Origin: a virus
Lineage: Duplodnaviria; Caudoviricetes
Length of the DNA stretch: 50,965 nucleotides
Virus record (IMG/VR): IMGVR_UViG_3300033148_004150
Coordinates: 1-50,965 of that record
Direction: 5' to 3' (one strand)
The first letter of the stretch is position 1, and every line of letters begins with the position of its first letter. The translations under genes and the position numbers were made by a program. The notes below the pieces were generated by a model that was not told the DNA's origin, ran no database searches, and worked only from the letters and a program-made list of their open reading frames with translations. Shown one piece after another: positions 8,764-36,255 of the stretch.

Positions 8764-8855
8764 GAGAAAAATAATCATAAAGGGGCTTGTCATATCGACT
8801 GTGGCATGGTAAGATAAAGAAAATGAATTATTTTCTTGAACCTCTGGAGGATGCA

Positions 8856-9101
8856 ATGGGAATTTTGCAAGACATTAGGAATGAACGAATTGCGGCTGGT
8901 AAGCTTGTAGTTGGCAAGGGATTGCTCCGAAGCAAGACATTTTGGGTGAATACTCTTGGCGGCCTGGCGACTGTCTTGAGTGCGGCTGGTGGCATTTCCT
9001 TTTTGCCATCTTCTTTCGCCCCTTGGATTGCCGGTGGATTGGCTGTTGTGAATGTAATTCTGCGAGTTATTTCCAATAAGCCAATTGTTAGTGTAAAGTA
9101 A
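8856..9101 (+). CDS. Holin-like small membrane protein
   Basis: SD GGAGG before ATG 8856; KGLLRSKTFWVN then two hydrophobic segments and basic tail LRVISNKPI. Confidence 0.6.
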   Translation: MGILQDIRNERIAAGKLVVGKGLLRSKTFWVNTLGGLATVLSAAGGISFLPSSFAPWIAGGLAVVNVILRVISNKPIVSVK

Positions 9102-9155: not shown

Positions 9156-10133
9156 ATGAAAAAGTCGCTAGGTATTATTTTTGCTTTCTTTTTTCTTATG
9201 GGCTGCGAAAAGGAAGCTCCGCCAGAATTGCAACCTCCAGTAAAATCCCCTGGGATTGATATTGAAATTTCTCCGCCAGTTGGACCTGGGCTTGATATTG
9301 AAATTGTCCCGCGACCCGAAAAGCCGAAGCGCCCCCGATGGTCTGTTGTTGACCCAAGAAAGGCTAATTGTAGTGATTATTTGAGGTCGGCTTGCCGCGT
9401 TCGCGGTGGTGGTTCTGGCGGTTCCGGTGCTTGCTTTAAAATCGACAATGAATATGTCTATGTTCTCACATGTCGTCATGTTGTCGGGAGAACAAAAGAA
9501 TTTATTGTTGAATTTTGGCTTGACGGAAAAATTACTGGAAAATACAGGGGAGAAATTTATAAAATTCTGAAGGTTGATTCTGCCGTTATTGTTATTCCAG
9601 TTAAAGCCTTCAAGGAAAATGAACTTCCGGTTGCAATTCCAATTTCCACTATTGGCCCCAATAAGGACCAATCTTTTATGACGGTTGGCTGTCCTGGATT
9701 AAGTTGGCAAACTCTAGTCGAAGGGCATATCATTAAGATGAATCAAAATAGCGGACAGAGTTTTCAGTTTATTCCGCCCCCCAAGGGTGGACGATCTGGG
9801 TCTGCAATTTTCCAAGATGGGAAAATTGTTGGTGTTCTTTGGGGCGCAACAAAAACTGAAGGTTATGGTGTCAATAGTAAAGATTTGAATGTTCTTACGC
9901 AACCAAGTAATTTTTATTTCACGGCAAGTTGGTGTCAATACTGTCAAGAAATGAGTTCTGTAATTGAATCCCTGAAGGCAGAAGGTGTTGATATTCAAAC
10001 TGTTGATTATGACCTTAATACTGCTTTTGCTGAATTATATGAAATTAATAGCTTGCCTGCATATGTCAATGCGCAGGGCGAAACAACCTCTGGTGTGAAA
10101 ACTGCCGAGGAACTTCGGGAGTTTTATCGGTAA
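9156..10133 (+). CDS. Lipoprotein: trypsin-like serine protease fused to a thioredoxin-like domain
   Basis: Lipobox MKK..FFLMG-C; catalytic motifs LTCRHV (His), VDSA (Asp), GGRSGSA (Ser); C-terminal FTASWCQYC and INSLPAY (thioredoxin fold). Confidence 0.85.
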   Translation: MKKSLGIIFAFFFLMGCEKEAPPELQPPVKSPGIDIEISPPVGPGLDIEIVPRPEKPKRPRWSVVDPRKANCSDYLRSACRVRGGGSGGSGACFKIDNEYVYVLTCRHVVGRTKEFIVEFWLDGKITGKYRGEIYKILKVDSAVIVIPVKAFKENELPVAIPISTIGPNKDQSFMTVGCPGLSWQTLVEGHIIKMNQNSGQSFQFIPPPKGGRSGSAIFQDGKIVGVLWGATKTEGYGVNSKDLNVLTQPSNFYFTASWCQYCQEMSSVIESLKAEGVDIQTVDYDLNTAFAELYEINSLPAYVNAQGETTSGVKTAEELREFYR

Positions 10134-10369
10134 TGTATATTCCGGCTTATGGCACACTTCTGGGAGTTTCAATGTTTCTGGTGGCTGATGCGCCAGTGGA
10201 TCTCCCCACTATCACTCCCCAGATGCTCCAGGGCGGCGCTCTGGCGATCCTCGGCGGGACAGTTTTCTATTTACTCACCAAGACCTTCCCTGCTTTCCTG
10301 AGAGCCCTGAAGGATCAGAGAGATGCCTTTTTGGCGCATCTCAATGAACGAGATCGCCGCGCAGATTAA
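10133..10369 (+). CDS. Holin-like small membrane protein
   Basis: 78 aa, hydrophobic segments and charged C-terminus; coupled to the protease gene and followed by a terminator. Confidence 0.5.
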   Translation: MYIPAYGTLLGVSMFLVADAPVDLPTITPQMLQGGALAILGGTVFYLLTKTFPAFLRALKDQRDAFLAHLNERDRRAD

Positions 10370-10399
10370 CAGCCATTTTTACTGCGCCTTCTTTCCATT

Positions 10400-10427
10400 G
10401 AGCCGTCCACTGGGGCGGCTTTTTCTT
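10400..10427 (+). terminator. Intrinsic terminator ending the late/lysis transcript
   Basis: GC-rich hairpin AGCCGTCC..GGGCGGCT followed by TTTTCTT. Confidence 0.8.
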
Positions 10428-10445
10428 GAATATCCGGTTTTTCGA

Positions 10446-10474
10446 TTGACAATGAATTTGAATCATTGTAAGAT
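10446..10474 (+). promoter_or_regulatory. Sigma70-type promoter for the replication module
   Basis: TTGACA-17 bp-TAAGAT, just after the terminator. Confidence 0.8.
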
Positions 10475-10492
10475 GGGTATGTTCGCTATTTG

Positions 10493-10590
10493 CTCGCGGT
10501 GATTGACTTGAACGAAAGTCGCTCCAGTAGGCATCCGGTGGAGCCAGCCGGGACGGAGAGTTGGTAGCTACGAGTCCAACTCACCGCGAG
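10493..10590 (+). ncRNA. Non-canonical tRNA-like (cloverleaf) RNA 1
   Basis: Closing stem CTCGCGGTGA/TCACCGCGAG; arms GACTT/AAGTC, CTCCA/TGGAG, CCG/CGG and GTTGG/CCAAC with tRNA-like spacing; enlarged loops; no encoded CCA. Confidence 0.65.
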
Positions 10591-10632
10591 ATTTTTGAAT
10601 ATAATATACAACAAAAGGTAAAAAGTGATGTC

Positions 10633-10788
10633 GTGAGTGAAAAAAGTTTCGGAGAACGCCTCAGTGACGGCTGGCGATTGCTAAGTGATGATTTCGGTGA
10701 ACAAGATAACGATAAATTCGTTACATTTGAAGATGATTTACATGACTATCTAGACGAAGAAAAAGATTCCACAAAAGAGGAACTGTAA
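10633..10788 (+). CDS. Small acidic hypothetical protein
   Basis: Likely GTG start at 10633 after AAAGGT; abuts the next gene; the TTG start at 10561 lies inside the RNA structure. Confidence 0.5.
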   Translation: MSEKSFGERLSDGWRLLSDDFGEQDNDKFVTFEDDLHDYLDEEKDSTKEEL

Positions 10789-11586
10789 ATGGCTTATGAT
10801 TTAGCTTCATTATCCAATGAAAAACGAGTACGAGCGCCACGAATTATTTTGCTCGGGGAACAGAAGATAGGCAAGAGTACATTTGCTGCCGGTGCAGATT
10901 CCCCGGCTTTCTTGCCAATAATGGGCGAAGAGGGAATTGATGATCTTAATCCACAGCCATTTGCACCCCCGGAACCTTGTGATTCATTAGCTGATGTTAT
11001 GGGGTGGCTTTATGCTTTCGGCCAAGATAAGCATCCCTATCAGACTGTAGTAATTGATTCCGTAAGTACACTAGAACCGATCATCCATGCGGAAATATGC
11101 CAAGAAGCTAATGTGAAGAGCATTAACGAAGGTCCATTAGGCTTCGGTACTGGCCTTGACAAGGCGGGAGTCATATGGCGACAAATTACAGAGGTTCTCG
11201 ATGCGCTGCGAACTCATAAAAATATGACTTCTATTTTAGTTGGCCACGTAGCAGTAAGACGCTTCGATGATCCAAATGGTGAATCTTACGATCAGTATCA
11301 ATGGGACATTCACCACAAGGCCGCCAATCTCCTTTATCGCTGGGCTGATTGCATTCTCTTCTGTAATACAAAAGTTATTGTGACCCATGAGAAACTTGGA
11401 TTTCACAAAGATAACGTAAGGAAAGTTGGAAGAGATATAGCCCCTGGCTCTCGTTTCTTATATACTCAGAAACGCCCATCACACCCTGGCGGAGGAAGGG
11501 GCGTGTATGGACATTTGCCTTATGAATTGCCCTTGAGTTGGGGTAATTTCCGCGATGCTGTTGCAAAAGCAATGAAAGGACAATAA
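10789..11586 (+). CDS. Sak4-like AAA_24 ATPase (phage single-strand annealing/recombination protein)
   Basis: Walker A GEQKIGKST, Walker B VVIDS, ILVGH, WADCILF; close to the DUF669 SSB gene. Confidence 0.85.
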   Translation: MAYDLASLSNEKRVRAPRIILLGEQKIGKSTFAAGADSPAFLPIMGEEGIDDLNPQPFAPPEPCDSLADVMGWLYAFGQDKHPYQTVVIDSVSTLEPIIHAEICQEANVKSINEGPLGFGTGLDKAGVIWRQITEVLDALRTHKNMTSILVGHVAVRRFDDPNGESYDQYQWDIHHKAANLLYRWADCILFCNTKVIVTHEKLGFHKDNVRKVGRDIAPGSRFLYTQKRPSHPGGGRGVYGHLPYELPLSWGNFRDAVAKAMKGQ

Positions 11587-11587
11587 G

Positions 11588-11848
11588 ATGGAAGTACCTA
11601 CGTTTTGTGTTGAACTTACAGAAGGGGCCAAGGAAAAAACACTAGCCGACATTCCAGAATGGACTTTAGCTGAATGTATTTACTCGCATAATGCATATTC
11701 GGTTATGCGATTTAGAATTGGAGATTATGCATATAGCGCTGATGTAAAAGGAGAAAAACCAATTAAGCAATCTTTGTCGTTGACAAAGGAATACACCATA
11801 AAAAAAATAATTGGTCAAATCATTGTAAGTGAGCAGAAAGGACAATAA
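11588..11848 (+). CDS. Hypothetical protein, tandem paralog 1
   Basis: 86 aa, highly similar to the next ORF. Confidence 0.75.
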   Translation: MEVPTFCVELTEGAKEKTLADIPEWTLAECIYSHNAYSVMRFRIGDYAYSADVKGEKPIKQSLSLTKEYTIKKIIGQIIVSEQKGQ

Positions 11849-11849
11849 G

Positions 11850-12110
11850 ATGAAAGTACCTACGTTTTGTGTTGAACTTCCAGAAAAGGCTAAGGAAAAA
11901 ACACTAGCTGACATTCCAGAGTGGACTTTAGCTGAATGTGATTATTCGTATAATATGCATTCAATTTTGCGATTTAGAATCGGAGATTATGCATACAGCG
12001 CCGATGCGAAAAAAGAAAAACCAATGAGGCAAAATTTAGCAAAGGTATACACCGTAAAAAAAGTAATTGGCCAAATTGTCGTGAATGATTTAATAACCGC
12101 ATCACTCTAA
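11850..12110 (+). CDS. Hypothetical protein, tandem paralog 2
   Basis: Starts MKVPTFCVEL behind the same AAAGGACAATAAG-ATG junction. Confidence 0.75.
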   Translation: MKVPTFCVELPEKAKEKTLADIPEWTLAECDYSYNMHSILRFRIGDYAYSADAKKEKPMRQNLAKVYTVKKVIGQIVVNDLITASL

Positions 12111-12670
12111 TGAAAGGTTTTGACATGAGTAATGATCTTTCGGCTTTTTTTGGTGGCGCTGCATTTGTACCCGCTCAGCATGAAGCCGCAACTGACATTG
12201 ATGTTTATCCACCTGGTAAATATCCGGTATTAATTAAGAAAGCGGAGGTAAGGGAAACCAAGAAGGGGAATGGCCATTTCATTGCACTTGAACTTCAAAT
12301 CCTGGATGGTCCTCATAAGGGCCGAATACTTTTTGATAATATCAACATTGATAATCCGAGTGAACAATGCGTAGAAATTGGTATGCGTACTTTTTCTGCG
12401 CTGGGGCGAGCCATTGGCCTTCAGGCTATTACCAACACAGATCAACTCCTCAATCAAATAGTTGTTGCACATGTTAAAGTCAAAGACAATCAAAATAATG
12501 TGCGAACATATTCTGGATCGACCGCGCCTCCAGTCGCCCCCACTACAGTTCCCTCGCCTCCCACATCTCCAGTTGCTTCACCAGCAATCAATCCAGAGCC
12601 TACCCCCTTGCCGCTGTGGCAAGGGGAACAGCGACCAGTACCTTCACAAAAACCCCCCTGGGAACGATAA
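12110..12670 (+). CDS. DUF669-family single-stranded DNA-binding protein
   Basis: PPGKYPVLIKKAEVRETKKGNG..L..QILDGPHKGRILFDNINI; Pro-rich tail ending PPWER. Confidence 0.85.
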   Translation: MKGFDMSNDLSAFFGGAAFVPAQHEAATDIDVYPPGKYPVLIKKAEVRETKKGNGHFIALELQILDGPHKGRILFDNINIDNPSEQCVEIGMRTFSALGRAIGLQAITNTDQLLNQIVVAHVKVKDNQNNVRTYSGSTAPPVAPTTVPSPPTSPVASPAINPEPTPLPLWQGEQRPVPSQKPPWER

Positions 12671-13765: not shown

Positions 13766-15100
13766 TTGACTGATATTGCACAATATCTCCCGAAGCAATC
13801 TAAGACCGTGGCAGCTATCTTAGCTTGCTATAAGAAAGCTGGCGATGATAGCCACATGAGTAAAACTCTTCCCATATCGCTAATTGGCCATCCATGTGAA
13901 CGGTATCTGTGGTATATTTTTCGGCAATGCTGCAAACCAAAATTTAGCGGCCGGATGTATCGGCTCTTCGCAACTGGACAGCTTGAGGAAACTCGCTTCG
14001 TCAAAGACCTCCAGGACATCGGTTGTGTAGTTGAAGTTTTTGACGAAAAAACAAATAAGCAATTCAAAGTAACGACTTTTGGCGGGCACTTGAAGGGCTA
14101 CCTGGACGGCTGTGCTCTCGGTATTCCTGAAGCTCCGAAAACTTGGCATGTACTTGAATTCAAGACGCATAATGCCAAATCTTTTCGGGATCTTATCAAG
14201 AAGGGAGTCATGCACGCACAGCGAAAGCATTATGCCCAAATGCAAATTTATATGCATTTAACTGGCATGAAGCGAGCACTGTATTTGGCTAAAAATAAAG
14301 ACACTGATGATCTTTATTCGGAACGTATTCGATATGATGAATACGAGAATGAATTGCTTATGGAAAAAGCAAAACGAATCATTTTAGCGTCAACACCACC
14401 TGATCGAATCTCTAATCGGCCTGATTACTATCAATGTAGCTGGTGTGATGCAAAGCAAATCTGTTGGGGTTCAGACGACAATAGCCCTGCATTGTCAGTT
14501 CCATCCCTTTCTTGTCGGCATTGTTGTCATGCAACGCCGGAAATAACAGAAAACAGCGAAGGGCGCTGGGTGTGTGCGAAAGATGAAGGTTATGTTTCTG
14601 ATGGGCAATCTTGTAAGTGTAAATCTCACCTCATTCTCCCAGGGCTCATTTCTTTCGCGGAACCAATTGATTATGGGCAGGATGGTAACGGCAAAGACTT
14701 CATTGAATTCACAAATAAGGATAAAACGACATGGAAAACTGGGCCCGCATACGGCTGCTACAGCAGCATAGAGCTAACCGAAATTCCAGTTTCATTATTG
14801 GCGAACGGGATGATACAAGGCGCCAAAAAAATCTTTGGGAGCACTGTAACAGAATGCGAACAGGATATTTTAAATCGCTACCCAGAGGAAGATTCGAGGA
14901 CCATTTGGAAGGGGCCAACTGAAGCTTTAGGTAGAGCATGGACACTAACATATGATGAGGATCTAACGAAGCTAAAGCCTATTGCTCGATTTAATAATCC
15001 ATTCGCAAAACCAGGATACGACTCAGCCGAATTAGAGGGTGGACGTGTTGTAATTGTTTGGGATAATGGCACGGCAGAAATCAGAGAGGGAGTGGAATGA
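13766..15100 (+). CDS. PD-(D/E)XK (Cas4/RecB-like) exonuclease with Cys clusters
   Basis: IGHPCERYLWY, GYLDG, LEFKT, HYAQMQIYM, CSWC..C, CRHC. Confidence 0.85.
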   Translation: MTDIAQYLPKQSKTVAAILACYKKAGDDSHMSKTLPISLIGHPCERYLWYIFRQCCKPKFSGRMYRLFATGQLEETRFVKDLQDIGCVVEVFDEKTNKQFKVTTFGGHLKGYLDGCALGIPEAPKTWHVLEFKTHNAKSFRDLIKKGVMHAQRKHYAQMQIYMHLTGMKRALYLAKNKDTDDLYSERIRYDEYENELLMEKAKRIILASTPPDRISNRPDYYQCSWCDAKQICWGSDDNSPALSVPSLSCRHCCHATPEITENSEGRWVCAKDEGYVSDGQSCKCKSHLILPGLISFAEPIDYGQDGNGKDFIEFTNKDKTTWKTGPAYGCYSSIELTEIPVSLLANGMIQGAKKIFGSTVTECEQDILNRYPEEDSRTIWKGPTEALGRAWTLTYDEDLTKLKPIARFNNPFAKPGYDSAELEGGRVVIVWDNGTAEIREGVE

Positions 15101-15250: not shown

Positions 15251-16864
15251 ATGTTAGTGCTGAGGCCCTATCAAACCGAAGCCCTTGAGGCTCTTCATTC
15301 GCATATTTGCGAAAAAAATACAAATCCATGTGTAGTAATTCCAACTGGCGGTGGCAAATCAGCATTGATTGCATGGGCCATTAAGGAATGGAAAGAACAT
15401 GCACCGCACTTCCGTTGTATTATTTTAGCGCACCGGAAGGAATTAATTGAACAAAATATGGCAGAACTTCAGGCTTTGTATTCTGACTCTGATGTGGGTA
15501 TTTTCTCTGCCGCCTTGCAACGACGCGATTACGATGCGAGTATTCTCTATGCCTCTATTGATTCTGTATTCAAACGCGCCGGTGAATTTACGCCCTGGGA
15601 TGTAATTATGGTTGATGAAGCCCATCGTATTCCATTTAGCGGCGAAGGAAAATATCGGACATTCATCAATGAAAGCCAAAAATACAATCCAAGAGTGAAG
15701 GTAATCGGCTGGACTGCTACGCCTTTCCGTATGGCCGGTGGACGAATTTGCCATAAAGATCATATTCTTAATGAAGTTTGCTACGAAGCTAAAGTTACTG
15801 ATCTCATAAAGGATGGTTACCTATGCCCGCTACGTTCAAAAGTTGGTGTAACGCAGCCGGACTTGAAGAGTGTCAAACGCAATTCCGGGGGCGATTACAT
15901 ACTGAAGGGGCTTGCGGAAATTACGAACCGCGAGAAGATCGTTTCCAGCGCAATTGCGGAAGCTGTACGCATAATCCAAGCGGAGAATCGAATTTCCGCT
16001 ATCTTCTTTTGTGTAGACATCGAACATTGCAAGAAGGTATCCCTTGAACTTCGTAAGCATGGGATTTATGCTCCATTTGTCACAGGCAAAACAAAACAAC
16101 AAAATCGTGATCGAATAGCCAAAGATTTTAAGGCAGGTAAACTTCGGGCCATTTGTAATGTCAATGTCTATACGGAGGGATTTAATGCTCAGTGCATTGA
16201 TTGTATTGTGCTCTTGCGGCCCACTTTGTCGCCAGGTCTCTATTCGCAAATGGTGGGTCGCGGCTTGCGTTGTCACCCATCAGTTACAGATTGCTTGGTA
16301 TTGGACTTCGCAAATTGCATTGAGGAACATGGCCCCATTGATCTCCTTAGTGGAGCACCTACGATCATGGCAACATGCCAAGTATGCCGCGAATCTTTCT
16401 CAAGAGCAATTAGATGCTGTCCTGCTTGCGGCTGGGAGATACCCAAACAGGAAATTGAGCGGCTTGAATTAGTTGAAAAGGAAAAACGACTTCACGGCAC
16501 TAAGGTCTCCAAGAAATCTGTCTTATCAAGCGAACCAGAAACTTACAAAGTAGATGCTGTTCATGTTAATCGGCACCGGAAAGAGGGAAGTCCAGATTCA
16601 ATTCGGATACAATATCGCTGCGGATTATCCATGTTCAGGGAATGGATTTGCCTCGATCATTCGGGATATGCCGGGCAACATGCGCAAACTTGGTGGAGAC
16701 AACGATTTGAAGTAAAAAAAAGAGGCAAAAAGCAAACTGTTGATGATGCACTAGAGAATTTATTTCTAACACAAGAACTCCTTGAATGGACTAAGACGAT
16801 TACTGTAAAGCGAAAAGGGAAATACTTCGAGATTATTAAATATAATCAACCCTTGGGAATATAG
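15251..16864 (+). CDS. SF2 DExH helicase (RadD/YejH-like) with zinc finger
   Basis: LRPYQ, PTGGGKS, DEAH, TATP, QMVGRGLR, CQVC..CPAC. Confidence 0.93.
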   Translation: MLVLRPYQTEALEALHSHICEKNTNPCVVIPTGGGKSALIAWAIKEWKEHAPHFRCIILAHRKELIEQNMAELQALYSDSDVGIFSAALQRRDYDASILYASIDSVFKRAGEFTPWDVIMVDEAHRIPFSGEGKYRTFINESQKYNPRVKVIGWTATPFRMAGGRICHKDHILNEVCYEAKVTDLIKDGYLCPLRSKVGVTQPDLKSVKRNSGGDYILKGLAEITNREKIVSSAIAEAVRIIQAENRISAIFFCVDIEHCKKVSLELRKHGIYAPFVTGKTKQQNRDRIAKDFKAGKLRAICNVNVYTEGFNAQCIDCIVLLRPTLSPGLYSQMVGRGLRCHPSVTDCLVLDFANCIEEHGPIDLLSGAPTIMATCQVCRESFSRAIRCCPACGWEIPKQEIERLELVEKEKRLHGTKVSKKSVLSSEPETYKVDAVHVNRHRKEGSPDSIRIQYRCGLSMFREWICLDHSGYAGQHAQTWWRQRFEVKKRGKKQTVDDALENLFLTQELLEWTKTITVKRKGKYFEIIKYNQPLGI

Positions 16865-17257: not shown

Positions 17258-17521
17258 ATGATTCAATTCCACATAATGGACGAAATTCTTAAACATCACG
17301 ACAAAATGACAAATGCGGCTGACATAGGATGGTGCATAGATTTAGCAGTACATGCATCGGAAAAACATAATGATTTGAAATTTTGTGATGTTGTATTAGT
17401 AACTGGAGAAGAATCGCAAAGGAGAAGTGAGCAATTGCTTTTTTGGATGCCCTACAGGAGAATTAAGGGGTGGCTTAAACACCTTGGATATTTAATGGAA
17501 CATTTATCGAAAGTAATATGA
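17258..17521 (+). CDS. Hypothetical protein
   Basis: 87 aa; ATGA overlap with Prim-Pol. Confidence 0.55.
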   Translation: MIQFHIMDEILKHHDKMTNAADIGWCIDLAVHASEKHNDLKFCDVVLVTGEESQRRSEQLLFWMPYRRIKGWLKHLGYLMEHLSKVI

Positions 17522-19794
17522 CCCAACTCCTTAAATATGCCTTGAAATACATCGAACTTAGTTGGAAGATTTTTCCAATAGTTCCACGCCAAAAAGTGCC
17601 CTTAACGGCACATGGCGTCAAGGATGCTTCCTCAGATACTAATCAAATTCGATTATGGTGGGAGAAATGGCCAAATGCCAATATTGCAGTTGCATGTGGC
17701 CAAATAAGTAGCATATACGTCATTGATGTAGATGTAACTGAAGCAGGCGATATAAATGGTTACGAATCATTAGAAGAATTTCCACCACTTCCTGAGACAA
17801 TTGTACAGGCAACTCCACGGGGTGGCTTCCATGCCTTCTACCGGACAGACAATCCCCCAGCCAACCGAAATAGTTTCCGACCGGGAATTGATATTCGCGG
17901 CGATGGATATTATGTAGTAATCGCCCCTTCCGTCCACCCCAATGGGGGGCAATACTTCTGGAAAGAAGATCATTCCCCTTGGGAAATCGAGCCAGTTGAG
18001 TTCCCGGAATTCATGCGGCCAACCACCAGGGCGCCGTGGGCAAAGCCAATATCCTTGCGGGCACCTGCTGCGGCTCCTGTGGCGCCCGCTGCGGCCGATG
18101 TTCTCCAGAGAGCAAGTTTATACTTAGCTGAATGCGAACCGGCCGTACAGGGCTGTGGCGGCCACGATAAGCTCCTCTGGGCGGCCGTGGCAATGGTTCA
18201 TGGATTTTTGCTAACAGATGACCAGGCATTTGACATTCTTGCGAGGGAGTATAACCCCCGCTGCGTACCGCCTTGGGACATTAGCATGACCAAAGATGGT
18301 CGGGACTTCAGGCGAAAAGTTACAGAAGCCCGAAAACTTATGCCTGATAAGCCACGCGGTTGGTTACTGAATGATTCTACTTATATGCCAACGCCATTGA
18401 TTCCGATTGACGTTAAGCAATTGATAGCTGAAAAACAATCAACATTTAAAGAAATTTCAATTACATCTAATTCAACAGAAGCGCATGAAATTGAATTTCT
18501 AACTCACCCCACTGGATTGCTTGGGGATATTTGTAAATGGATCAATACAACAGCCATCAGGAAACAGCCACTTCTTACTTTGGCTTGCGCATTGACATTC
18601 TGTGGTGTTTTATTTGGCCGTAAAGTCCGCGATTCCCTGGGAAGCCGCACAAACCTTTATTGCATGGGAATAGCGAAATCCTCAGCAGGGAAAGCTCATG
18701 CCCCCAGTCAAATTCGCAGACTTTGTGAAGCAGCCGGTTGCCGGGACCTTCTGGGCGGTGATGATGCCGCTTCAGATGCAGCCATTGAAGAGCGCATCCA
18801 AAAGAACCCCGCCTGTCTCTTTCTCTGGGATGAAATCGGACATTTTCTATCACATATTCGATCAGGTATTAGCCAACACCATACACGAATTATTCCATTG
18901 TTAATGAAACTTTATTCCGCTGCCGGAAGTGTATATAAGGGAAAAGAGTATTCTGATTCGGATTTGCAACGAACTATTATTCAACCTTGTTGTTGTATTT
19001 ATGGCACATCTTCGCCAGAACGATTCAGTTCTGGTATTTCTCCAGAAGAACTTCAAGATGGATGGCTCAGTCGATGTTTAGTATTCCGAACAGATACTAA
19101 ACCCGAAAAAGACAGAAGCAATTGCGATGCACTTATCCCACAAGACATAATAGATCAAGTCAGTAAATGGCATAATCGTCAAATTGGTGAGATAGATAAC
19201 AAGAATATCGAAGCCTTCATAGCTTATCATGGAGATATTGGAATATCTTACCAGCAACCACCACAACAAATAGTTGTCCCGGGAACATCCGAAGCTGAAG
19301 ATATTTTTATTTCTTTCGATAATGAATGTACTGAATTTGGAAAAACTATTCCAATTTTAGATTGCTTATGGTCAAAAGGAGAAGAAAATGCAAGGCGCAT
19401 AGCTTTAATTGTGGCTGCAAGTGAAAATTTTAATACTCCATGCATTACTGGTTCTATCGCTGATTATGCCTGTCGACTTATACGATATTTGTTAGTAAAT
19501 TTCGGAAGAGATACAGTACCGACAATTGTCACTTGTCAAATAGATGCACAGAAACAAAAACTCCTGAAAATAATTAACCAAGAAGGCGTTAATGGATGTC
19601 CTAATCGTATCCTGACTCAACGAGCACGATGGTCGAATAAAAAGCAACGCTCAGCTTTACTTGCTGACCTTATCGAGGCAGAGGAAGTCATAATGCAGAT
19701 AAAAGACGGCAAAAAAGCCCCTTCTTTTTGGACTGTTGAAAATTATCGAAAATATTTAGCACAACAAACAGAAGAAAAGTTAAATGACTCCTGA
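17518..19794 (+). CDS. Bifunctional primase/polymerase (Prim-Pol) fused to a DUF3987-like helicase domain
   Basis: IFPI..KVPL..HGVKDAS, WPNANIAV, VIDVD, TPRGGFH, GIDIRGDGYYVVIAPSVH; C-terminal SSAGK, LWDEIG, DGWLSR. Confidence 0.9.
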   Translation: MTQLLKYALKYIELSWKIFPIVPRQKVPLTAHGVKDASSDTNQIRLWWEKWPNANIAVACGQISSIYVIDVDVTEAGDINGYESLEEFPPLPETIVQATPRGGFHAFYRTDNPPANRNSFRPGIDIRGDGYYVVIAPSVHPNGGQYFWKEDHSPWEIEPVEFPEFMRPTTRAPWAKPISLRAPAAAPVAPAAADVLQRASLYLAECEPAVQGCGGHDKLLWAAVAMVHGFLLTDDQAFDILAREYNPRCVPPWDISMTKDGRDFRRKVTEARKLMPDKPRGWLLNDSTYMPTPLIPIDVKQLIAEKQSTFKEISITSNSTEAHEIEFLTHPTGLLGDICKWINTTAIRKQPLLTLACALTFCGVLFGRKVRDSLGSRTNLYCMGIAKSSAGKAHAPSQIRRLCEAAGCRDLLGGDDAASDAAIEERIQKNPACLFLWDEIGHFLSHIRSGISQHHTRIIPLLMKLYSAAGSVYKGKEYSDSDLQRTIIQPCCCIYGTSSPERFSSGISPEELQDGWLSRCLVFRTDTKPEKDRSNCDALIPQDIIDQVSKWHNRQIGEIDNKNIEAFIAYHGDIGISYQQPPQQIVVPGTSEAEDIFISFDNECTEFGKTIPILDCLWSKGEENARRIALIVAASENFNTPCITGSIADYACRLIRYLLVNFGRDTVPTIVTCQIDAQKQKLLKIINQEGVNGCPNRILTQRARWSNKKQRSALLADLIEAEEVIMQIKDGKKAPSFWTVENYRKYLAQQTEEKLNDS

Positions 19795-31296: not shown

Positions 31297-31329
31297 AGCC
31301 TTCTCCCTTCGTGTTGTGAGTGTTAGCCC

Positions 31330-31518
31330 CTACTTCCGATAGTTTCCACCTAGCCGCGTAAGCATATCGTTGGCCAGATGCCAAGTATCAAGCACCATTC
31401 GTCCCTCATCTTCTGCCAGTGTATTGGCAATACGCCGCAAGTCTGGTATCACAATGTCTTGAACATCTACGGGTCTGCGATGATCGGCACCAGCAACAGT
31501 TTCGATAATTACGGTCAT
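31330..31518 (-). CDS. Cassette gene, 62 aa
   Basis: Full junction motif before MTVIIETVAG. Confidence 0.65.
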   Translation of the reverse strand: MTVIIETVAGADHRRPVDVQDIVIPDLRRIANTLAEDEGRMVLDTWHLANDMLTRLGGNYRK

Positions 31519-31565
31519 AACTTTCTCCCTTCGTGTTGTGAGTGACGTACACAAGACCACTAAAG

Positions 31566-31790
31566 TTAAGCGGGTGAGCCAAGTCTGGCATTGGCAAAGT
31601 AGTGTTTCTCGCAACCTTCCTCAATGCACACTGGACAGGCTCCCAAGTGCGTAGCTGGCCGGGAAAGCACTATCTCGGGGATAATATCCTCTGACTGGAC
31701 TTTCCTTACGTCGGTCCATTCGGGCGGGAAGTCGGCAGTGTGCTGAATCCCGCAGAACTTGCATTGTAGTCGAATCTCTTGACGGCTCAT
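31566..31790 (-). CDS. Cassette gene, zinc-finger module Z
   Basis: IRLQCKFC..ADFPPEWTD..THLGACPVC. Confidence 0.7.
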   Translation of the reverse strand: MSRQEIRLQCKFCGIQHTADFPPEWTDVRKVQSEDIIPEIVLSRPATHLGACPVCIEEGCEKHYFANARLGSPA

Positions 31791-31832
31791 AACTTTCTCC
31801 CTTCACGTTGTGAGTGGTAGCCCCATCACTCA

Positions 31833-31860: not shown

Positions 31861-31992
31861 GTAAAACTAACGGGCGGGCTAAGCCTGGTATTGGCAAGGT
31901 AGTATTTATCACCACCTTCCCCATAGCCGATACCAACAGGTTTCTATCACTTGCAGTATTTAGTGATATTGCCTGTCGCCCGTACATAGTCA

Positions 31993-32020
31993 ATTATATA
32001 TCATATTCGCCGGAACACAA
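31993..32020 (-). promoter_or_regulatory. Second candidate early promoter
   Basis: TTGTGT-16 bp-TATAAT on the - strand. Confidence 0.55.
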
Positions 32021-32295
32021 GTGAAATCCAGAGTCGTCACTGATGATTATCAGGTGCATGGCCTAGTTATACTGTCCAGGGTGAATTAGATGCGATTATG
32101 CCGATTACGGGTGAATCTGCCAAAATGGCAGCCACCACGTCGCGTCTAACGTCGATTCAGAGGGTCGACCCTGTTTTGATACCCCCAGAATCCGCAGCTT
32201 GTCGTATGCAAGCCGTCCAGTGGCGAAGGGTAGTGATTGTGGTTGAGTGGACGAATGAGCGTGAGGCGTGGCGTGTGGGGCTAGGGCGAGGACAG

Positions 32296-32343
32296 GAGTG
32301 AATGGAGTGGAGTGAGTGGAGTGAGTGGAGTGAGTGGAGTGGG
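32296..32343. repeat. GAGTG/GAGTGGAGT tandem repeat
   Basis: ..GGAGTGGAGTGAGTGGAGTGAGTGGAGTGAGTGGAGTGGG. Confidence 0.9.
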
Positions 32344-32754
32344 TGGGTGGGGGCGGGGGCTATTGCGCTTGGGTCAGACCCTTGAAGTGCGCGTCGATTT
32401 TGGATTGATATACATTATACTCTTGCAGACCGTTCTGGCCCGACCGACACGGTTAGACCGGACAAAAAACCCTATTTTCTAAGGGTTTTCGTGCCGTGGG
32501 GGGGCCCCATTACTTCTGAAATCCGAACCACACCCCCCGCCCCCGATGACGCCGCCGGGGGCGGGTAGCCCCTCTCTGCCGCCACACGAAAATCTCAATC
32601 CACAACACTATTTACATCTGGAAAACCAGATATAGTAATTTTTGGTGTTATACCACTTTCACACGCGCGCACATTACATGGAGTAAGATGATAAACTAAG
32701 TAATGATTAAATGGGTGGTATGTATCCGCTAGGTGATATATATCCCCTAATTCG

Positions 32755-33124
32755 ATGTTGCCATAAATAACGGGTGGGATATACCCTACTAACCCGAAGT
32801 AGTTTTGTTGAAAATGATGTTGCAAACAGAAAAAACAACCCCAAATGGTAGGCTACATAAAGCAAAACTCCCTATACATATCGGAGTTATCTGACCTCCC
32901 CCTAGCGATGGAGACAATGTTGCGATGTTGCTAAGGGATCTGAGACCTTAAAGACTATAATCTAATAGGGGGATTGACAAGAAAAAGAACAGACTCCGCA
33001 ACATGCAACATTCTATAAAAAGAGAGAGAGAGAGAGAGAGAGAGTGAGTATATATAGGGAATTATATCTGGCCCGCCCCCCATTAGATGTTATTTGCAAC
33101 ATTCTAACAACAGCCCAACATTCT
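32755..33124. repeat. Inverted array of ATGTTGC/GCAACAT heptamers (candidate origin or packaging site)
   Basis: ATGTTGC at 32755, 32817, 32917, 32925; GCAACAT at 32998, 33005, 33096; CCAACAT at 33115. Confidence 0.65.
33021..33044. repeat. (AG)12 microsatellite
   Basis: Perfect dinucleotide run. Confidence 0.95.
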
Positions 33125-33184
33125 CTGGGCATTTTAGCCCTCAGAAAATTTTGTTATATATTAAAATGAAAATTCAGAAATCTC

Positions 33185-33213
33185 TTGACATCTATTGGAC
33201 GGCATGGTAAATT
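33185..33213 (+). promoter_or_regulatory. Sigma70-type promoter for the packaging/morphogenesis module
   Basis: TTGACA-17 bp-TAAATT with extended -10 TG and AT-rich upstream sequence. Confidence 0.8.
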
Positions 33214-33220
33214 AGAAGAT

Positions 33221-33364
33221 GAAGTCACGGCGGCAGCGTGGAGTGGACATGCAGCGTTTGTTGTGGTAAGCGTCGATGGGGACTCGCAACCCAGAACCCG
33301 CCCCATCTTGCGAGCATGGGGTTAATCATCGAGCCGGTCTCAAGTCCGGTCCGCCGTTGGCTTC
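33221..33364 (+). ncRNA. Non-canonical tRNA-like RNA 2 with a large inserted variable domain
   Basis: 7-bp ACGGCGG/CCGCCGT; D-like GCGTG/CATGC; GCGTTT/AAGCGT arm; CGATG/CATCG-closed insert; T-like GCCGG-TCTCAAGT-CCGGT. Confidence 0.7.
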
Positions 33365-33399
33365 TTTTTATTATGAAATAGATAAAGAAAAAGAAAACA

Positions 33400-34443: not shown

Positions 34444-36255
34444 GTGAAAACTCCGTTTATCCACCATGTCCCAACAGGGATGTTGGAGAATCTTAAATGG
34501 CGTTCTGCCGTTCATAAGCGAGTAATGGAGGAGCCTGGATACGCTAAAGTTATCTGGGATGCTTGTGCCATTGATCCGCTCTTTTACATTTGCGGATTTG
34601 GTTACACTTATGATCCTCGTTGCGAACCTTTCGCAAAACTTCCATTCATTCTGTATCCTTTTCAACGTGAAGGCTTGTTGAAAATCATTGATGCTATCAA
34701 CAAGCGTGATTTACTTGTTGAAAAATCAAGGGATACTGGCGCAAGTTGGATGTGTATTCTTGCTTTTGAGTGGCTATGGCATTTTTTCCCATTGAAATCT
34801 TTCTTAATGGGATCACGAACAGAAGATTATGTTGATAATACTGAAAATCCTAAGTCACTTTTTTGGAAACTGGATTTCTTCCAAGACAACCTTCCAACGT
34901 GGCTTATGCCAAATGGATTTAACCGAGCGGAACATCGCCGGAAACTACACCTTATCAATCCAGAAAATGGTAGTGTAATAGATGGGGAAAGCACCACTGG
35001 ACAATTTGCTCGTGGTGATCGTCGTACTGCGATTTTTCTTGATGAGTTTGCGGCAGTAGAATTCGGGCATAAGGTATTACCTGCCACGAGAGATGCAACT
35101 AGAAGTCGAATCTTTAATTCAACTCCATTGGGAATTAACAATGCCTTTTATGATGTTAGCCAAACCAATATCGAGAAACTTCGATTTCATTGGACGGAAC
35201 ATCCAGAGAAAAGGAAGGGTCTTTATACAACAAATGAAAATGGCCATCTTGTAATTCTTGATAAAGAGAATTATCCGAAAGATTACAAGCCAATCTTAGA
35301 TGGTAAACTTCGTTCGATTGCATATGATTACGAAGAATCACGCTCTTCTCCGCGCGAGATGGCTCAAGAATGGGATATTGATTATCTCGGATCTGGAGTG
35401 CAGTATTTCGATTCTGATCGTATCCAGATTGCTATTCGTACATATTCCAGACCACCAATAGTCATTGGAGATTTGGAGTATGATAGCGTTACTGGAGATC
35501 CTATTAGATTCAGGGAAAATGAGAATGGCCATATTCACCTCTGGTGTTTACTTGATAAGGACGGTAATATACCAAGGGAGCATAAAGCAGTGCTTGGTGC
35601 CGATGTATCAGCGGGAACTGGTAGTTCTAACTCATGCCTGTGTGGATATGATGCCATTACGAATGAGAAAATTCTTGAATATACTAGCCCGTATATTCGC
35701 CCGGAAGAGTTTGCCAAGCAAGCGGTAGCTATTGCTCGCTGGATGGGGGGTGCATACCTTATCTGGGAAAGTAATGGCCCAGGGCGTCAGTTTGGATCGC
35801 GGGTTATGGATCTTCGATATAGCAACATTTATTTCCGCAGGCGAGAGGAAGCTATCGGAAAGAAAATATCGCAGATTCCTGGGTGGGCATCATCCAGAGA
35901 GACGAAACTTGTTCTCTTGGGGGATTATCGTTCAGCAGTCGAAAAGGGAACATGTGTTAATCGTTCCAAGCAGGCACTTGAAGAATGTTTTGAATATATT
36001 CACGACCCAAAGGGGGGCGTTTCACATTCACGGGCAGATGATAAATCTGATCCATCAGGCGCAAGAGATAATCACGGCGATCATGTCATTGCTGATGCCC
36101 TGGCGTGGCGTGGGATGATTGAACGAAAAAATACACCTAAATCTAAAAAGCCTAATATCCCTGTTGGGTCATTAGCATGGCGCATGGCACAACGCAAGGC
36201 AATGAAATCGGAATCAGGACAACAACTTCTCAGGAGTGAGGGATGGCGATGGTAG
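34444..36255 (+). CDS. terL: Terminase large subunit
   Basis: LYPFQ, VEKSRDTGASW, IFLDEFA, FNSTPLG; nuclease domain GADVSAG, WESNGPG, DHVIADALA. Confidence 0.93.
   Translation: MKTPFIHHVPTGMLENLKWRSAVHKRVMEEPGYAKVIWDACAIDPLFYICGFGYTYDPRCEPFAKLPFILYPFQREGLLKIIDAINKRDLLVEKSRDTGASWMCILAFEWLWHFFPLKSFLMGSRTEDYVDNTENPKSLFWKLDFFQDNLPTWLMPNGFNRAEHRRKLHLINPENGSVIDGESTTGQFARGDRRTAIFLDEFAAVEFGHKVLPATRDATRSRIFNSTPLGINNAFYDVSQTNIEKLRFHWTEHPEKRKGLYTTNENGHLVILDKENYPKDYKPILDGKLRSIAYDYEESRSSPREMAQEWDIDYLGSGVQYFDSDRIQIAIRTYSRPPIVIGDLEYDSVTGDPIRFRENENGHIHLWCLLDKDGNIPREHKAVLGADVSAGTGSSNSCLCGYDAITNEKILEYTSPYIRPEEFAKQAVAIARWMGGAYLIWESNGPGRQFGSRVMDLRYSNIYFRRREEAIGKKISQIPGWASSRETKLVLLGDYRSAVEKGTCVNRSKQALEECFEYIHDPKGGVSHSRADDKSDPSGARDNHGDHVIADALAWRGMIERKNTPKSKKPNIPVGSLAWRMAQRKAMKSESGQQLLRSEGWRW

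What the first reader, a model, noticed from the sequence alone, without database searches (positions are those of the whole stretch)
10493..10596. tRNA-shaped RNA 1 with enlarged loops at the start of the replication operon
Seen: about 12 nt after the predicted start of the TTGACA/TAAGAT promoter. 7-bp acceptor-like GCGGTGA/TCACCGC (extendable to 10 bp), 2-nt linker, GACTT/AAGTC arm, 1 nt, 5-bp CTCCA/TGGAG arm with a 12-nt loop (GTAGG-CAT-CCGG), short variable arm, then 5-bp GTTGG/CCAAC arm directly abutting the acceptor 3' strand. That is tRNA junction geometry, but the T-loop is 11 nt (ending CGAGT), no CCA is encoded and a T-run follows. Inferred: a tRNA mimic rather than a decoding tRNA, for example an RNase P/Z processing signal, an attenuator, or a decoy for anticodon nucleases.
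Basis: partly seen in the sequence, partly recalled or inferred. Interest (0 to 1): 0.8.

Follow-up and report, generated by a model that had tools for sequence, protein, structure and literature searches.

The report
tRNA-shaped leader RNA of phage operon
A small group of uncultivated phages starts its DNA-replication operon with a roughly 100-base RNA that folds like a tRNA but cannot decode, and whose closing helix plus a run of U looks like a built-in transcription stop; its function is still unknown.

Summary
The element is real. At 10493-10596 on the + strand, about 12 nt after a sigma-70-type promoter, lies a four-way-junction RNA. It has a 10-bp closing helix, three hairpins and then A+UUUUU. 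Homologues occur in two related phage contigs (L002, L019) and in one unrelated viral contig (L121). They keep the fold through compensatory changes: 111 of 113 pair cells are canonical and 10 pair columns changed on both sides. G-U pairs place the structure on the + strand.

ARAGORN and Rfam find nothing, so this is not a decoding tRNA or a described family. The conserved middle arm is longer and bulged, and it ends in a 7-nt loop G[GA]AGCCA that lacks anticodon-loop hallmarks.

tRNA-like features are the junction linkers, a 5-bp arm abutting the closing helix, one covarying loop-loop pair, and a standard-looking T arm in L121.

My best reading, at moderate confidence, is a self-terminating leader or small RNA that gates read-through into the Sak4/SSB/exonuclease/helicase/primase genes. 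RNase P/Z processing, a trans-acting tRNA mimic and a ribozyme remain open. The family is rare: 4 members were found.

The parts
10400..10421 (+). Ordinary hairpin terminator followed by T-rich tail; it ends the preceding (late/lysis) transcription unit
   Evidence: 9-bp stem, 6 G-C pairs, 4-nt loop, TTTCTTG tail
10446..10474 (+). Sigma-70-type promoter: TTGACA, 17-nt spacer, TAAGAT. The spacer holds a perfect 7-bp inverted repeat, ACAATGA-N7-TCATTGT (10449-10469), which looks like an operator
   Evidence: only copy in the window. A homologous -10 region, TA[AG]GAT followed by GGG..TAT, is seen in L002 and L019. L002 also has TTGACG with a 17-nt spacer.
10493..10502 (+). P1, 5' strand of the 10-bp closing (acceptor-like) helix
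   Evidence: 5 of 10 pairs change on both sides among window, L002 and L019
10505..10520 (+). P2 hairpin (D-arm position): GACTT/AAGTC with 6-nt loop GAACGA
   Evidence: kept in 3 of 3 clade members with wobble changes only. Loop bases C10513 and G10514 may pair with the P4 loop.
10522..10558 (+). P3, a long bulged arm in the anticodon-arm position. P3a is CTCC 10522-10525 with GGAG 10555-10558. The 5' bulge AGTAGGCA is at 10526-10533. P3b is 10534-10539 with 10547-10552. The 7-nt loop GGAGCCA is at 10540-10546.
   Evidence: P3b covaries (C-G to U-A at two positions). The bulge AGG[CT]A and the loop G[GA]AGCCA are invariant in 4 of 4 members.
10560..10580 (+). P4 hairpin (T-arm position): GTTGG/CCAAC, 11-nt loop TAGCTACGAGT, abutting the P1 3' strand with no linker
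   Evidence: the middle pair is U-A, C-G, C-G and A-U in the four members. The loop is 28 nt in L002 and 7 nt in L121.
10581..10590 (+). P1, 3' strand of the closing helix
10591..10596 (+). One unpaired base (A) followed by TTTTT: a U-tract directly after the closing helix
   Evidence: The same layout is seen in L002 (A TTTT C) and L019 (C TTTTT C). L121 has only G TTT G.
10597..10788 (+). A/T-rich leader with AAGG, then a small ORF (probable GTG start at 10633, 51 aa) that is conserved in relatives and runs straight into the Sak4-like gene (10789-11586)

Best explanation
This is a transcribed, + strand RNA of about 100 nt, sitting at the 5' end of the replication/recombination operon of a complete 51-kb phage. 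Host RNA polymerase starts at the TTGACA/TAAGAT promoter. Within about 12 nt it transcribes a four-way junction that folds like a tRNA: closing helix P1, a D-position hairpin P2, a long bulged arm P3 and a T-position hairpin P4. The fold carries none of the features needed for decoding.

P1 is the last helix to close. It is 10 bp, G+C-rich, stacked under P4, and followed at once by A+UUUUU. My reading is that P1 plus the U-tract acts as an intrinsic terminator of partial or conditional strength. Some transcripts would end there and release a stable tRNA-shaped small RNA. The rest would read through into the small ORF and the Sak4, SSB, Cas4-type exonuclease, helicase and primase genes. The element would therefore set, and perhaps regulate, how much early replication mRNA is made.

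Shown: the structure, its strand, its conservation, its position after a promoter, and the helix-plus-U-run. Inferred: that termination happens, that it is partial, and that the conserved bulge and loop of P3 are a recognition surface for a factor that changes the outcome.
For: Structure and strand
- 111 of 113 pair cells are canonical in 4 homologues. 10 columns have double changes. 9 cells are G-U pairs that would be mismatches on the other strand, where only 102 of 113 cells would pair.
- 0 of 500 shuffles reach the observed covariation.
- P1 and P3b are recovered independently by RNAalifold.
- It is not coding: L002 carries a 17-nt insertion in the P4 loop.

Position
- A promoter lies directly upstream in the window and in L002. 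The homologous -10 region is present in L019.
- An ordinary terminator closes the previous transcription unit at 10400-10421.
- I saw no convincing second promoter between the element and the first ORF (read by eye).

Terminator reading
- The closing helix is followed by one base and then 4-5 U in 3 of 3 clade members.
- The same helix-and-tail pattern (CTC-R-Y-G... / ...C-R-Y-GAG, one base, TTTT) closes other branched structures just after the SSB gene in L012, L014 and L016, and also in L133 (position relative to genes not checked).
- In 95 Sak4-relative loci (704,552 bases), long-range stems of 9 bp or more followed by a T-run number 17 on the sense strand and 6 on the antisense strand. After I merged near-identical loci by eye, that is about 12 against 6.
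- A second promoter-proximal branched RNA in the window is also closed by a long stem plus a T-run. It lies at about 33215-33369, ahead of the structural-gene operon.
Against: - The 'loop' enclosed by P1 is 78 nt and branched. Known intrinsic terminators have small loops, so the consensus scan does not call a terminator here.
- The U-tract is short: 5 U in the window and 4 in L002.
- L121 keeps the fold but has only G+UUU+G and an A+U-rich closing helix, so termination cannot be the function shared by all four members.
- In L019 about 55 nt with two extra hairpins lie between the -10-like box and P1, and no -35 box is seen, so 'promoter-proximal' is clear in only 2 of 3 clade members.
- Selection on the inner helices, on the invariant bulge and loop, and on the possible loop-loop pair is more than a terminator needs.
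- The element is missing from close relatives that have the same operon: 78 of 79 further loci lack it, and so do 6 relatives' whole records (5 of 5; L007's record). It is therefore dispensable for the operon as such.
Confidence: 0.4

Rival explanations
1. It is a tRNA-like processing signal, working like the 't-elements' of plant mitochondria. Host RNase P would cut at the 5' side of the closing helix. RNase Z or RNase E would cut after the unpaired base in front of the U-run. This would release a tRNA-shaped by-product and leave the replication mRNA with a defined, processed 5' end.
For: - The junction has tRNA-like linkers, and a 5-bp arm is stacked on the closing helix with no linker.
- All 4 members, L121 included, have one unpaired base and then at least 3 U after the helix. 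U-rich trailers without CCA are what RNase Z prefers; this is from my own knowledge.
- L121 has a standard-looking T arm and a GG-containing D-position loop.
- One covarying loop-loop pair could form a tRNA-like elbow: P2 loop ACG with P4 loop ACGAG in the window and L002, and AGG with ACCAG in L019.
- tRNA-like t-elements that form mRNA ends are in print (PMC1920247; I saw only the search listing and the start of the abstract).
Against: - The coaxial stack of closing helix plus P4 is 15 bp in the window and L002 and about 14 bp in L019, against 12 bp in tRNA.
- The P4 loop is 11-28 nt in the clade rather than 7.
- No Rfam tRNA model matches the window.
- The host is unknown, so its 3'-processing route is unknown. 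The nearest isolates are Synechococcus phages, at only 37.8% Sak4 identity.
- This does not explain the G+C-rich 10-bp helix shared with other terminator-like elements.
Confidence: 0.2
2. It is a small RNA that acts in trans as a tRNA mimic. For example it could be a decoy or sponge for a host protein that recognises tRNA shape, such as a tRNA-directed defence nuclease, a modification or processing enzyme, or a toxin that acts on tRNA ends. It would be made first and in quantity from the early promoter.
For: - It is the first thing transcribed from a near-consensus promoter.
- The whole fold is under selection, not just the closing helix.
- The bulge and the 7-nt loop are invariant in 4 of 4 members, including L121, which sits in an unrelated phage and a different gene context. 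That fits recognition by a host factor.
- The patchy distribution among close relatives resembles that of accessory or counter-defence genes.
Against: - The loop G[GA]AGCCA does not resemble any anticodon loop: it has no U at position 33 and C at position 37. Anticodon-loop nucleases are therefore unlikely targets.
- There is no CCA end.
- No expression data exist.
- No partner is identified. The genes shared only by the window and the L019 contig are three small ORFs (8787-9101; 11588-11848 and 11829-12110, which both hit one region of L019) with no Pfam family above its cut-off (8787-9101 has only a weak, sub-threshold DUF7940 hit); an SprT-like protein and a serine recombinase are also shared, but both have weaker matches in one relative that lacks the RNA.
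Confidence: 0.12
3. It is a new self-cleaving ribozyme in the operon leader.
For: - The invariant bases are concentrated in a bulge and a loop of a multi-helix junction.
- The window's second leader RNA gives a weak, sub-threshold match to the twister-P5 ribozyme (19.8 bits against a gathering score of 37.6; E = 0.03 on a 171-base search). From my own knowledge, new ribozyme classes have been found next to known ones.
Against: - No Rfam ribozyme family matches 10485-10600, even at E up to 10.
- The twister match covers only one hairpin and a 4-bp stem; the core is skipped.
- No cleavage-site motif can be named.
- Four sequences are too few to define a catalytic core.
Confidence: 0.04
4. It is a decaying tRNA gene or a chance fold with no function of its own. 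Alternatively it is a DNA-level element (operator, origin or recombination site) rather than an RNA.
For: - L121 looks like a degenerate tRNA.
- The single-sequence fold is only z = -2.68, and the opposite strand folds equally well.
- The element lies next to replication genes.
Against: - 10 pair columns have compensatory double changes, and only 2 of 113 cells are unpaired. That is purifying selection on the structure, not decay.
- 9 G-U cells make the fold strand-specific and consistent with the direction of transcription.
- The only DNA palindrome that looks like an operator is in the promoter spacer, outside the element.
Confidence: 0.06

Closest known systems
Transfer RNA (Rfam clan CL00001)
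   Same: - Four helices meet at one junction.
- The linkers are 2, 1 and 0 nt at the acceptor/D, D/anticodon and T/acceptor positions.
- A 5-bp T-position arm stacks on the closing helix.
- The middle arm ends in a 5-6-bp stem with a 7-nt loop.
- A loop-loop 'elbow' pair is possible.
- L121 has a standard-looking T arm.
   Different: - ARAGORN and all Rfam tRNA models miss it.
- The closing helix is 10 bp.
- No CCA is encoded.
- The T-position loop is 11-28 nt in the clade.
- The middle arm has an extra 3-5-bp helix and a 5-8-nt bulge.
- The loop lacks U33 and a purine at 37.
- The linker in the variable-loop position is only 0-1 nt.
tRNA-like processing elements: plant mitochondrial t-elements (PMC1920247, listing and abstract only) and mascRNA of MALAT1 (recalled)
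   Same: A non-decoding tRNA-shaped module sits inside a longer transcript. There is no encoded CCA, and a U-rich trailer follows.
   Different: Those elements are cut by RNase P and RNase Z, which has been shown. Here nothing is shown, the acceptor/T stack is 14-15 bp rather than 12, and the element sits right after a promoter rather than between mRNAs.
Promoter-proximal terminated leaders read through by antitermination, such as the phage lambda late promoter with its short 6S transcript and terminator (recalled from textbook knowledge)
   Same: A strong constitutive-looking promoter is followed within about 110-190 nt by a terminator, and an operon lies behind it. A second such arrangement stands ahead of the structural genes in this window.
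   Different: Lambda's terminator is a simple hairpin and its short RNA has no selected fold. No Q- or N-like protein was identified here.
HK022 put RNA and other cis-acting antiterminator RNAs (recalled)
   Same: A folded RNA of 70-120 nt is transcribed just downstream of an early phage promoter and acts on the polymerase that made it.
   Different: put is two stem-loops without a closing helix or a U-run. No sequence or Rfam similarity was found. The function was not tested.
Bacterial Y-RNA-like YrlA and other tRNA mimics (recalled; in Rfam)
   Same: A non-coding RNA with a tRNA-like domain; some members are phage-borne.
   Different: From memory, in YrlA the RNA ends lie in the Ro-binding stem, not in the acceptor-like helix. 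No Rfam match was found. No Ro/Rsr-like gene was found among the window proteins I scanned.
Catalogue of 10,006 candidate structured RNAs from viruses and phages, 8,495 of them from IMG/VR (PMC10690425; passages read)
   Same: It draws on the same data source (IMG/VR) and reports tRNA-like structures, terminator-containing motifs and motifs upstream of genes.

Membership tests
tRNA | Recognised by a tRNA gene finder | tested here: not met
   ARAGORN finds 0 genes in the window and 0 in L121
tRNA | Match to the Rfam tRNA or tRNA-Sec covariance models | tested here: not met
   The window gives 0 matches at gathering score and 0 at E up to 10 on 10485-10600. L121 gives only tRNA-Sec at 18 bits against a gathering score of 47.
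tRNA | Four-way junction with acceptor/D, D/anticodon and T/acceptor linkers of 2, 1 and 0 nt | tested here: met
   The window has linkers of 2, 1 and 0 nt. L002 has 1, 1 and 0. L019 has 0-1, 1 and 0.
tRNA | 7-bp acceptor stem with a discriminator base and CCA (encoded or added) | tested here: not met
   The closing helix is 10 bp (8 plus 1 in L019). It is followed by one base and a U-run, and no CCA is encoded. Whether CCA is added cannot be tested here.
tRNA | 7-nt anticodon loop with U at position 33 and a purine at 37 | tested here: not met
   The loop is 7 nt but reads GGAGCCA or GAAGCCA in 4 of 4 members
tRNA | 5-bp T stem with a 7-nt T loop | tested here: inconclusive
   The stem is 5 bp in 4 of 4 members. 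The loop is 11 nt in the window and L019, 28 nt in L002, and 7 nt only in L121.
tRNA | Tertiary pairing between the D loop and the T loop (the elbow) | tested here: inconclusive
   There is one covarying event. C10513:G10572 and G10514:C10571 in the window and L002 become G:C and G:C in L019 (read by eye).
Intrinsic (factor-independent) terminator | G+C-rich helix followed directly by a U-tract | tested here: met
   The helix is 10 bp with 7 G-C pairs and is followed by A+UUUUU. The same holds in L002 and L019.
Intrinsic (factor-independent) terminator | Simple hairpin with a short loop | tested here: not met
   The helix encloses 78 nt with three hairpins, so the consensus scan does not list it
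Intrinsic (factor-independent) terminator | RNA 3' ends at the U-tract | not testable with these tools
   No sequencing run was listed for this stretch
RNase P / RNase Z substrate (tRNA-like processing element) | Coaxial acceptor-plus-T stack of about 12 bp | tested here: not met
   The stack is 15 bp in the window and L002, about 14 bp in L019 and 13-14 bp in L121
RNase P / RNase Z substrate (tRNA-like processing element) | Cleavage by the enzymes | not testable with these tools
   This needs an in vitro assay
Any described RNA family (Rfam 15, 4227 models, including ribozymes, riboswitches, YrlA, C4 and tmRNA) | Covariance-model match | tested here: not met
   The only hit in 10300-10800 is an irrelevant lncRNA model at E = 5.2.

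The most novel reading that the evidence does not exclude
The element is a new kind of gene switch: a tRNA-shaped 'sensor-terminator'. A factor that recognises tRNA shape, or the invariant bulge and loop, would bind it. That factor could be a host tRNA-processing or tRNA-binding protein, or a phage protein. Binding would decide whether the acceptor-like helix closes and stops RNA polymerase. Phage DNA replication would then be tied to the state of the host's tRNA or translation machinery. Equally bold and not excluded is that the released RNA is a trans-acting tRNA mimic that disarms a tRNA-directed host defence.
Probability: 0.15. Interest if true: 0.8.

Novelty: new variant of a known kind. 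Interest (0 to 1): 0.55.

Why it matters
tRNA-like folds are re-used in biology as processing signals, mimics and regulators. Few are known in DNA phages apart from real tRNA genes. I found none described in which the acceptor-like helix doubles as a terminator at the head of an early operon. That statement rests on four full-text searches, and the supplements of the one relevant catalogue could not be opened.

If the reading is right, the element offers a compact, portable module of promoter, stable RNA and leaky stop. It would also be a handle on how an uncultivated phage group times its replication genes. If the rival 'mimic' reading is right, it would be an RNA-based counter-measure aimed at tRNA-recognising host proteins.

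In either case the family is defined well enough to be tested at the bench and submitted as a new RNA motif. It has four members, a consensus structure and covariation.

Tried and rejected
- Known families. ARAGORN and Rfam gave no usable match for the element.
- Isolate phage database. blastn of 10380-10800 found no match.
- Wider homologue hunt. Pattern scans of viral contigs returned 1, 68 and 41 stretches. My first gapped pattern used the wrong gap length and missed window-type members; one search corrected this. Scored with model R1, only the L019 contig and L121 (32.5 bits) stood out. The next best, L112, scored 19.6 bits in a 72% G+C coding-like stretch and was dropped.
- Genome contigs pattern scan. 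74 stretches were returned, the best at 19.6 bits, and none was convincing. These serve as a control for what the pattern alone scores.
- Relatives. 79 further Sak4-relative loci contained only the L019 contig again. Six whole related records had none. Three handles were not held and so were not searched.
- L121 neighbourhood. One distant relative was found, with no tRNA and no R1 match.
- Expression. No RNA holder was listed and no run of any kind was listed.
- RNase P resemblance. I recalled a resemblance of the P2/P3 5' region to the conserved CR-I region of RNase P RNA. I tested it against 5 RNase P RNAs fetched here. Local alignment scores were no better than shuffles in 19 of 20 comparisons, so I rejected it as chance.
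- Anticodon-nuclease decoy. Rejected on the loop sequence.
- Origin or DNA-level reading. Rejected on strand-specific G-U pairs.
- Partner-gene search by co-occurrence (window and L019 contig against 4 complete relatives that lack the RNA). It yielded only small ORFs with no Pfam family above its cut-off (one has a weak DUF7940 hit); an SprT-like protein and a serine recombinase are also shared with the L019 contig, but both have weaker matches in one relative that lacks the RNA. Two RNA-positive genomes are too few.
- Second covariance model. MAFFT would not give a structurally correct alignment, so the pair table was made by script.
Full report
**What the window is.** The window is a complete viral record of 50,965 bp with direct terminal repeats. 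Just upstream of the element lie a peptidase/thioredoxin-domain protein (9156-10133), a 78-aa protein (10133-10369) and an ordinary hairpin terminator (10400-10421). Downstream lie a small ORF, a Sak4-like annealing protein (10789-11586), SSB (12110-12670), a Cas4-type exonuclease (13766-15100), a helicase (15251-16864) and a primase-polymerase (17518-19794). The nearest isolates by Sak4 are two Synechococcus phages at only 37.8% identity, so the host is not known.

**The observation.**
- The promoter is TTGACA (10446), a 17-nt spacer, then TAAGAT (10474).
- The closing helix is 10493-10502 with 10581-10590.
- The hairpins are at 10505-10520 and 10560-10580.
- A10591 and TTTTT (10592-10596) follow.

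On its own the fold is only mildly unusual. The MFE is -44.6 kcal/mol, z is -2.68, and 3 of 200 shuffles fold as well. The reverse strand folds about as well (z -2.83). ARAGORN finds no tRNA or tmRNA in the window. Rfam finds nothing at gathering score in the window. At E up to 10 it finds only an irrelevant lncRNA model (E = 5.2) within 10300-10800, and nothing on 10485-10600.

**Homologues.** I used the Sak4 protein to fetch related loci.
- 1 of 7 viral loci has the element at the same place, behind a homologous promoter. This is L002, with 72% Sak4 identity.
- 1 of 13 metagenome loci has it about 1.4 kb upstream of Sak4, ahead of other small ORFs. This is L019, with 68% identity, and it is the same contig as viral L023 and L134.
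- A covariance model built from these three (R1) was run over 79 further Sak4-relative loci (47-68% identity). It found only the L019 contig again.
- It found nothing in six whole related records.
- Scans for the conserved bulge-plus-loop string gave 109 stretches in viral contigs and 74 in bacterial and archaeal genomes. Apart from L019's own contig (found again as L023, 52.3 bits for a match cut off at the locus end) and L002's own contig (a pattern hit I did not re-score), chance stretches score at most 19.6 bits with R1. One viral stretch, L121:4222-4320, scores 32.5 bits.

L121 lies in an unrelated phage fragment. It has the same bulge, the same 7-nt loop, an 8-9-bp closing helix and a 5-bp hairpin abutting it. 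That hairpin has a 7-nt loop of standard T-loop form. Rfam gives a weak tRNA-Sec match (18 bits against 47), and ARAGORN finds none. The family as found has four members and is rare.

**The structure.** I laid the helices of the four sequences side by side by script.
- 111 of 113 pair cells are canonical. 10 pair columns changed on both sides, 6 on one side only, and 16 never vary.
- Sliding the 3' partners by 1-3 nt leaves 36-45% paired.
- 9 cells are G-U. Read on the opposite strand, only 102 of 113 cells would pair. The fold therefore belongs to the + strand, which is the direction of the operon.
- The tool count on the model-fitted alignment A6 mis-aligns one L002 hairpin and so is conservative, though the alignment leans towards the model. 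It gives 90% paired against 38-46% when slid, 14 pairs with double changes, and 0 of 500 shuffles as high.
- RNAalifold on an unfitted MAFFT alignment recovers P1 and the inner hairpin, with 8 of 18 predicted pairs compensated.

The consensus fold is as follows.
- P1: 10 bp.
- P2: 5-6 bp with a 6-7-nt loop.
- P3a: 3-5 bp.
- A 5-8-nt 5' bulge containing AGG[CU]A.
- P3b: 6 bp including a terminal U-G or C-G pair.
- A 7-nt loop G[GA]AGCCA.
- P4: 5 bp, GUNGG with CCNAC.
- No linker between P4 and P1.

The conserved alternative costs 0.9 kcal/mol more in the window. In L002 the MFE is the consensus fold; in L019 the MFE keeps all five helices but differs in a few junction pairs. L002 carries 17 extra bases in the P4 loop, which rules out a coding reading.

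**How tRNA-like is it?** These features match a tRNA:
- The four-way junction.
- The linkers of 2, 1 and 0 nt.
- A 5-bp arm stacked on the closing helix.
- A 7-nt loop on the middle arm.

There is also one suggestive covariation between the P2 loop and the P4 loop. C10513:G10572 and G10514:C10571 in the window and L002 become G:C and G:C in L019. This would make a tRNA-type elbow (read by eye; it is a single event). L121, with its standard T arm and a GG in the D-position loop, links the family to tRNA ancestry.

These features do not match:
- The helix is 10 bp rather than 7.
- There is no CCA.
- The T-position loop is 11-28 nt in the clade.
- The middle arm has an extra helix and a bulge.
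- The variable-loop linker is 0-1 nt.
- The loop lacks the U33 and purine-37 pattern.

It is a tRNA-shaped RNA and not a tRNA.

**What else the neighbourhood shows.**
- The promoter spacer holds a perfect 7-bp inverted repeat (10449-10469). It is the only copy in the window and looks like an operator. L019 has a different inverted repeat at the same spot.
- The closing helix and its tail resemble a pattern that recurs in this phage group. Just after the SSB gene, L012, L014 and L016 carry Y-shaped or more branched structures, and L133 carries a similar one whose position relative to genes I did not check. Each is closed by a similar 10-11-bp helix and followed by TTTT(T).
- Across 95 loci (704,552 bases), long-range stems followed by a T-run number 17 on the sense strand and 6 on the antisense strand. 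After I merged near-identical loci by eye, that is about 12 against 6.
- The window has a second case. Behind the promoter TTGACA (33185), 17 nt, TAAATT lies a five-way junction of about 150 nt (about 33215-33369). It is closed by a 12-13-bp helix followed by CTTCTTTTT. It stands ahead of an HTH protein, followed by 603-aa and 584-aa ORFs that I did not scan but that are conserved in four complete relatives, and which I take to be the structural/packaging genes. It has no homologue in 5 relatives.

**Mechanism.** What is shown is a selected + strand fold, placed about 12 nt after a promoter in 2 of 3 clade members. The third, L019, has a homologous -10 box but about 55 nt of extra hairpins. 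The fold ends in a strong helix followed by one base and 4-5 U. I saw no convincing second promoter before the first ORF. The simplest mechanism that uses all of this is a self-terminating leader. P1 closes last and stacks under P4, so the polymerase meets a helix of about 15 bp followed by a U-tract. Some transcripts end there and release a stable tRNA-shaped RNA. The rest read through into the operon. I put this at about 0.4.

The case against is real.
- The enclosed 78-nt branched 'loop' is unlike known terminators.
- The U-run is short.
- L121 has no terminator-like tail.
- Selection on the inner fold and on the invariant bulge and loop is more than termination needs.

That surplus is why I keep three rivals open.
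- RNase P/Z-type processing (0.2). All four members, L121 included, have one unpaired base and then at least 3 U. This fits a CCA-less RNase Z substrate, but the helix stack is 14-15 bp rather than 12.
- A trans-acting tRNA mimic (0.12). The distribution is patchy, like that of an accessory gene, and the recognition surface is invariant across unrelated phages. However, the loop is not anticodon-like and no partner is known.
- A new ribozyme (0.04).

A decayed tRNA gene, chance or a DNA-level element together get about 0.06, because of the compensatory changes and the strand-specific G-U pairs.

**Novelty.** No Rfam family matches. Four full-text searches found no description of a tRNA-like leader whose acceptor-like helix serves as a terminator in a phage. 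A 2023 catalogue of 10,006 candidate structured RNAs from viruses reports tRNA-like and terminator-containing motifs from IMG/VR (PMC10690425; passages read). Its motif tables are in supplements I could not open, so this motif may already be listed there without a function. I class the element as a new variant of a known kind, namely tRNA-like structured RNA combined with leader termination.

**Limits.**
- There are four sequences, two of them on short contigs.
- There are no expression data, because no sequencing run was listed.
- The host is unknown.
- The covariance model was built from an imperfect alignment.
- The collections could be scanned only by exact patterns, so divergent members may have been missed.

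Noticed in passing
window 33185-33369 (+): A second promoter-proximal branched RNA. The promoter is TTGACA, 17 nt, TAAATT. It is followed by a five-way junction of about 150 nt, closed by a 12-13-bp helix and then CTTCTTTTT. This stands just ahead of the HTH gene at 33400 and the following large ORFs (34444-36255, 36243-37997), which were not scanned. z = -2.16. It is the second-best R1 hit in the window (14.7 bits). No homologue was found in 5 relatives.
   Followed up: partly
window 33290-33349 (+): Inside that second RNA there is a sub-threshold match to the twister-P5 ribozyme (19.8 bits against a gathering score of 37.6; E = 0.03 on a 171-base search). It covers one hairpin, CCGGTCTCAAGTCCGG, and a 4-bp stem. 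The model core is skipped.
   Followed up: partly
window 32462-32600 (-): A G+C-rich structured stretch on the minus strand, followed by an ordinary terminator hairpin with TTTTTT. It may be a separate small RNA gene. Fold z is only -1.48, and there is no Rfam match.
   Followed up: partly
window about 31990-33180: About 1.2 kb has no convincing ORF. It holds a run of CACTC/CACTCA-type short repeats (about 32295-32350) and a (GA)n run (about 33024-33046). It lies between the minus-strand gene block and the late promoter, and may be a regulatory or origin region.
   Followed up: no
window 10449-10469 (+): A perfect 7-bp inverted repeat, ACAATGA-N7-TCATTGT, fills the promoter spacer. It is the only copy in the window and looks like an operator. 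L019 has TTCTGAC/GTCAGAA repeats at the equivalent spot.
   Followed up: partly
L012:4335-4442, L014:3846-3912, L016:3859-3924, L133:6733-6803 (+): Branched structures closed by a 10-11-bp helix of similar sequence to P1 and followed by TTTT(T). In L012, L014 and L016 they sit just after the SSB gene of relatives; L133's position relative to genes was not checked. They look like branched terminators or attenuators inside the operon.
   Followed up: partly
L004:2640-2727 (= L018:1454-1541): A different branched structure with a 12-bp closing helix. It sits ahead of a small ORF homologous to the one that follows the element in L019, so it is an analogous leader at the same place but with a different fold.
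   Followed up: no
window 10628-10636 (+): A two-codon mini-ORF (ATG TCG TGA) overlaps the probable GTG start (10633) of the small ORF. This may be a case of translational coupling (read by eye).
   Followed up: no
window 31300-31830 (-): Three small minus-strand ORFs are each preceded by nearly the same 25-nt leader...CTCACAAC[AG][CT]GAAGGGAGAA[AG]G[CT]TATG.
   Followed up: no
L141:2215-2260: A stretch that looks like the 3' end of a tRNA gene lies in an intergenic region of a relative. It may be an attachment-site remnant.
   Followed up: no
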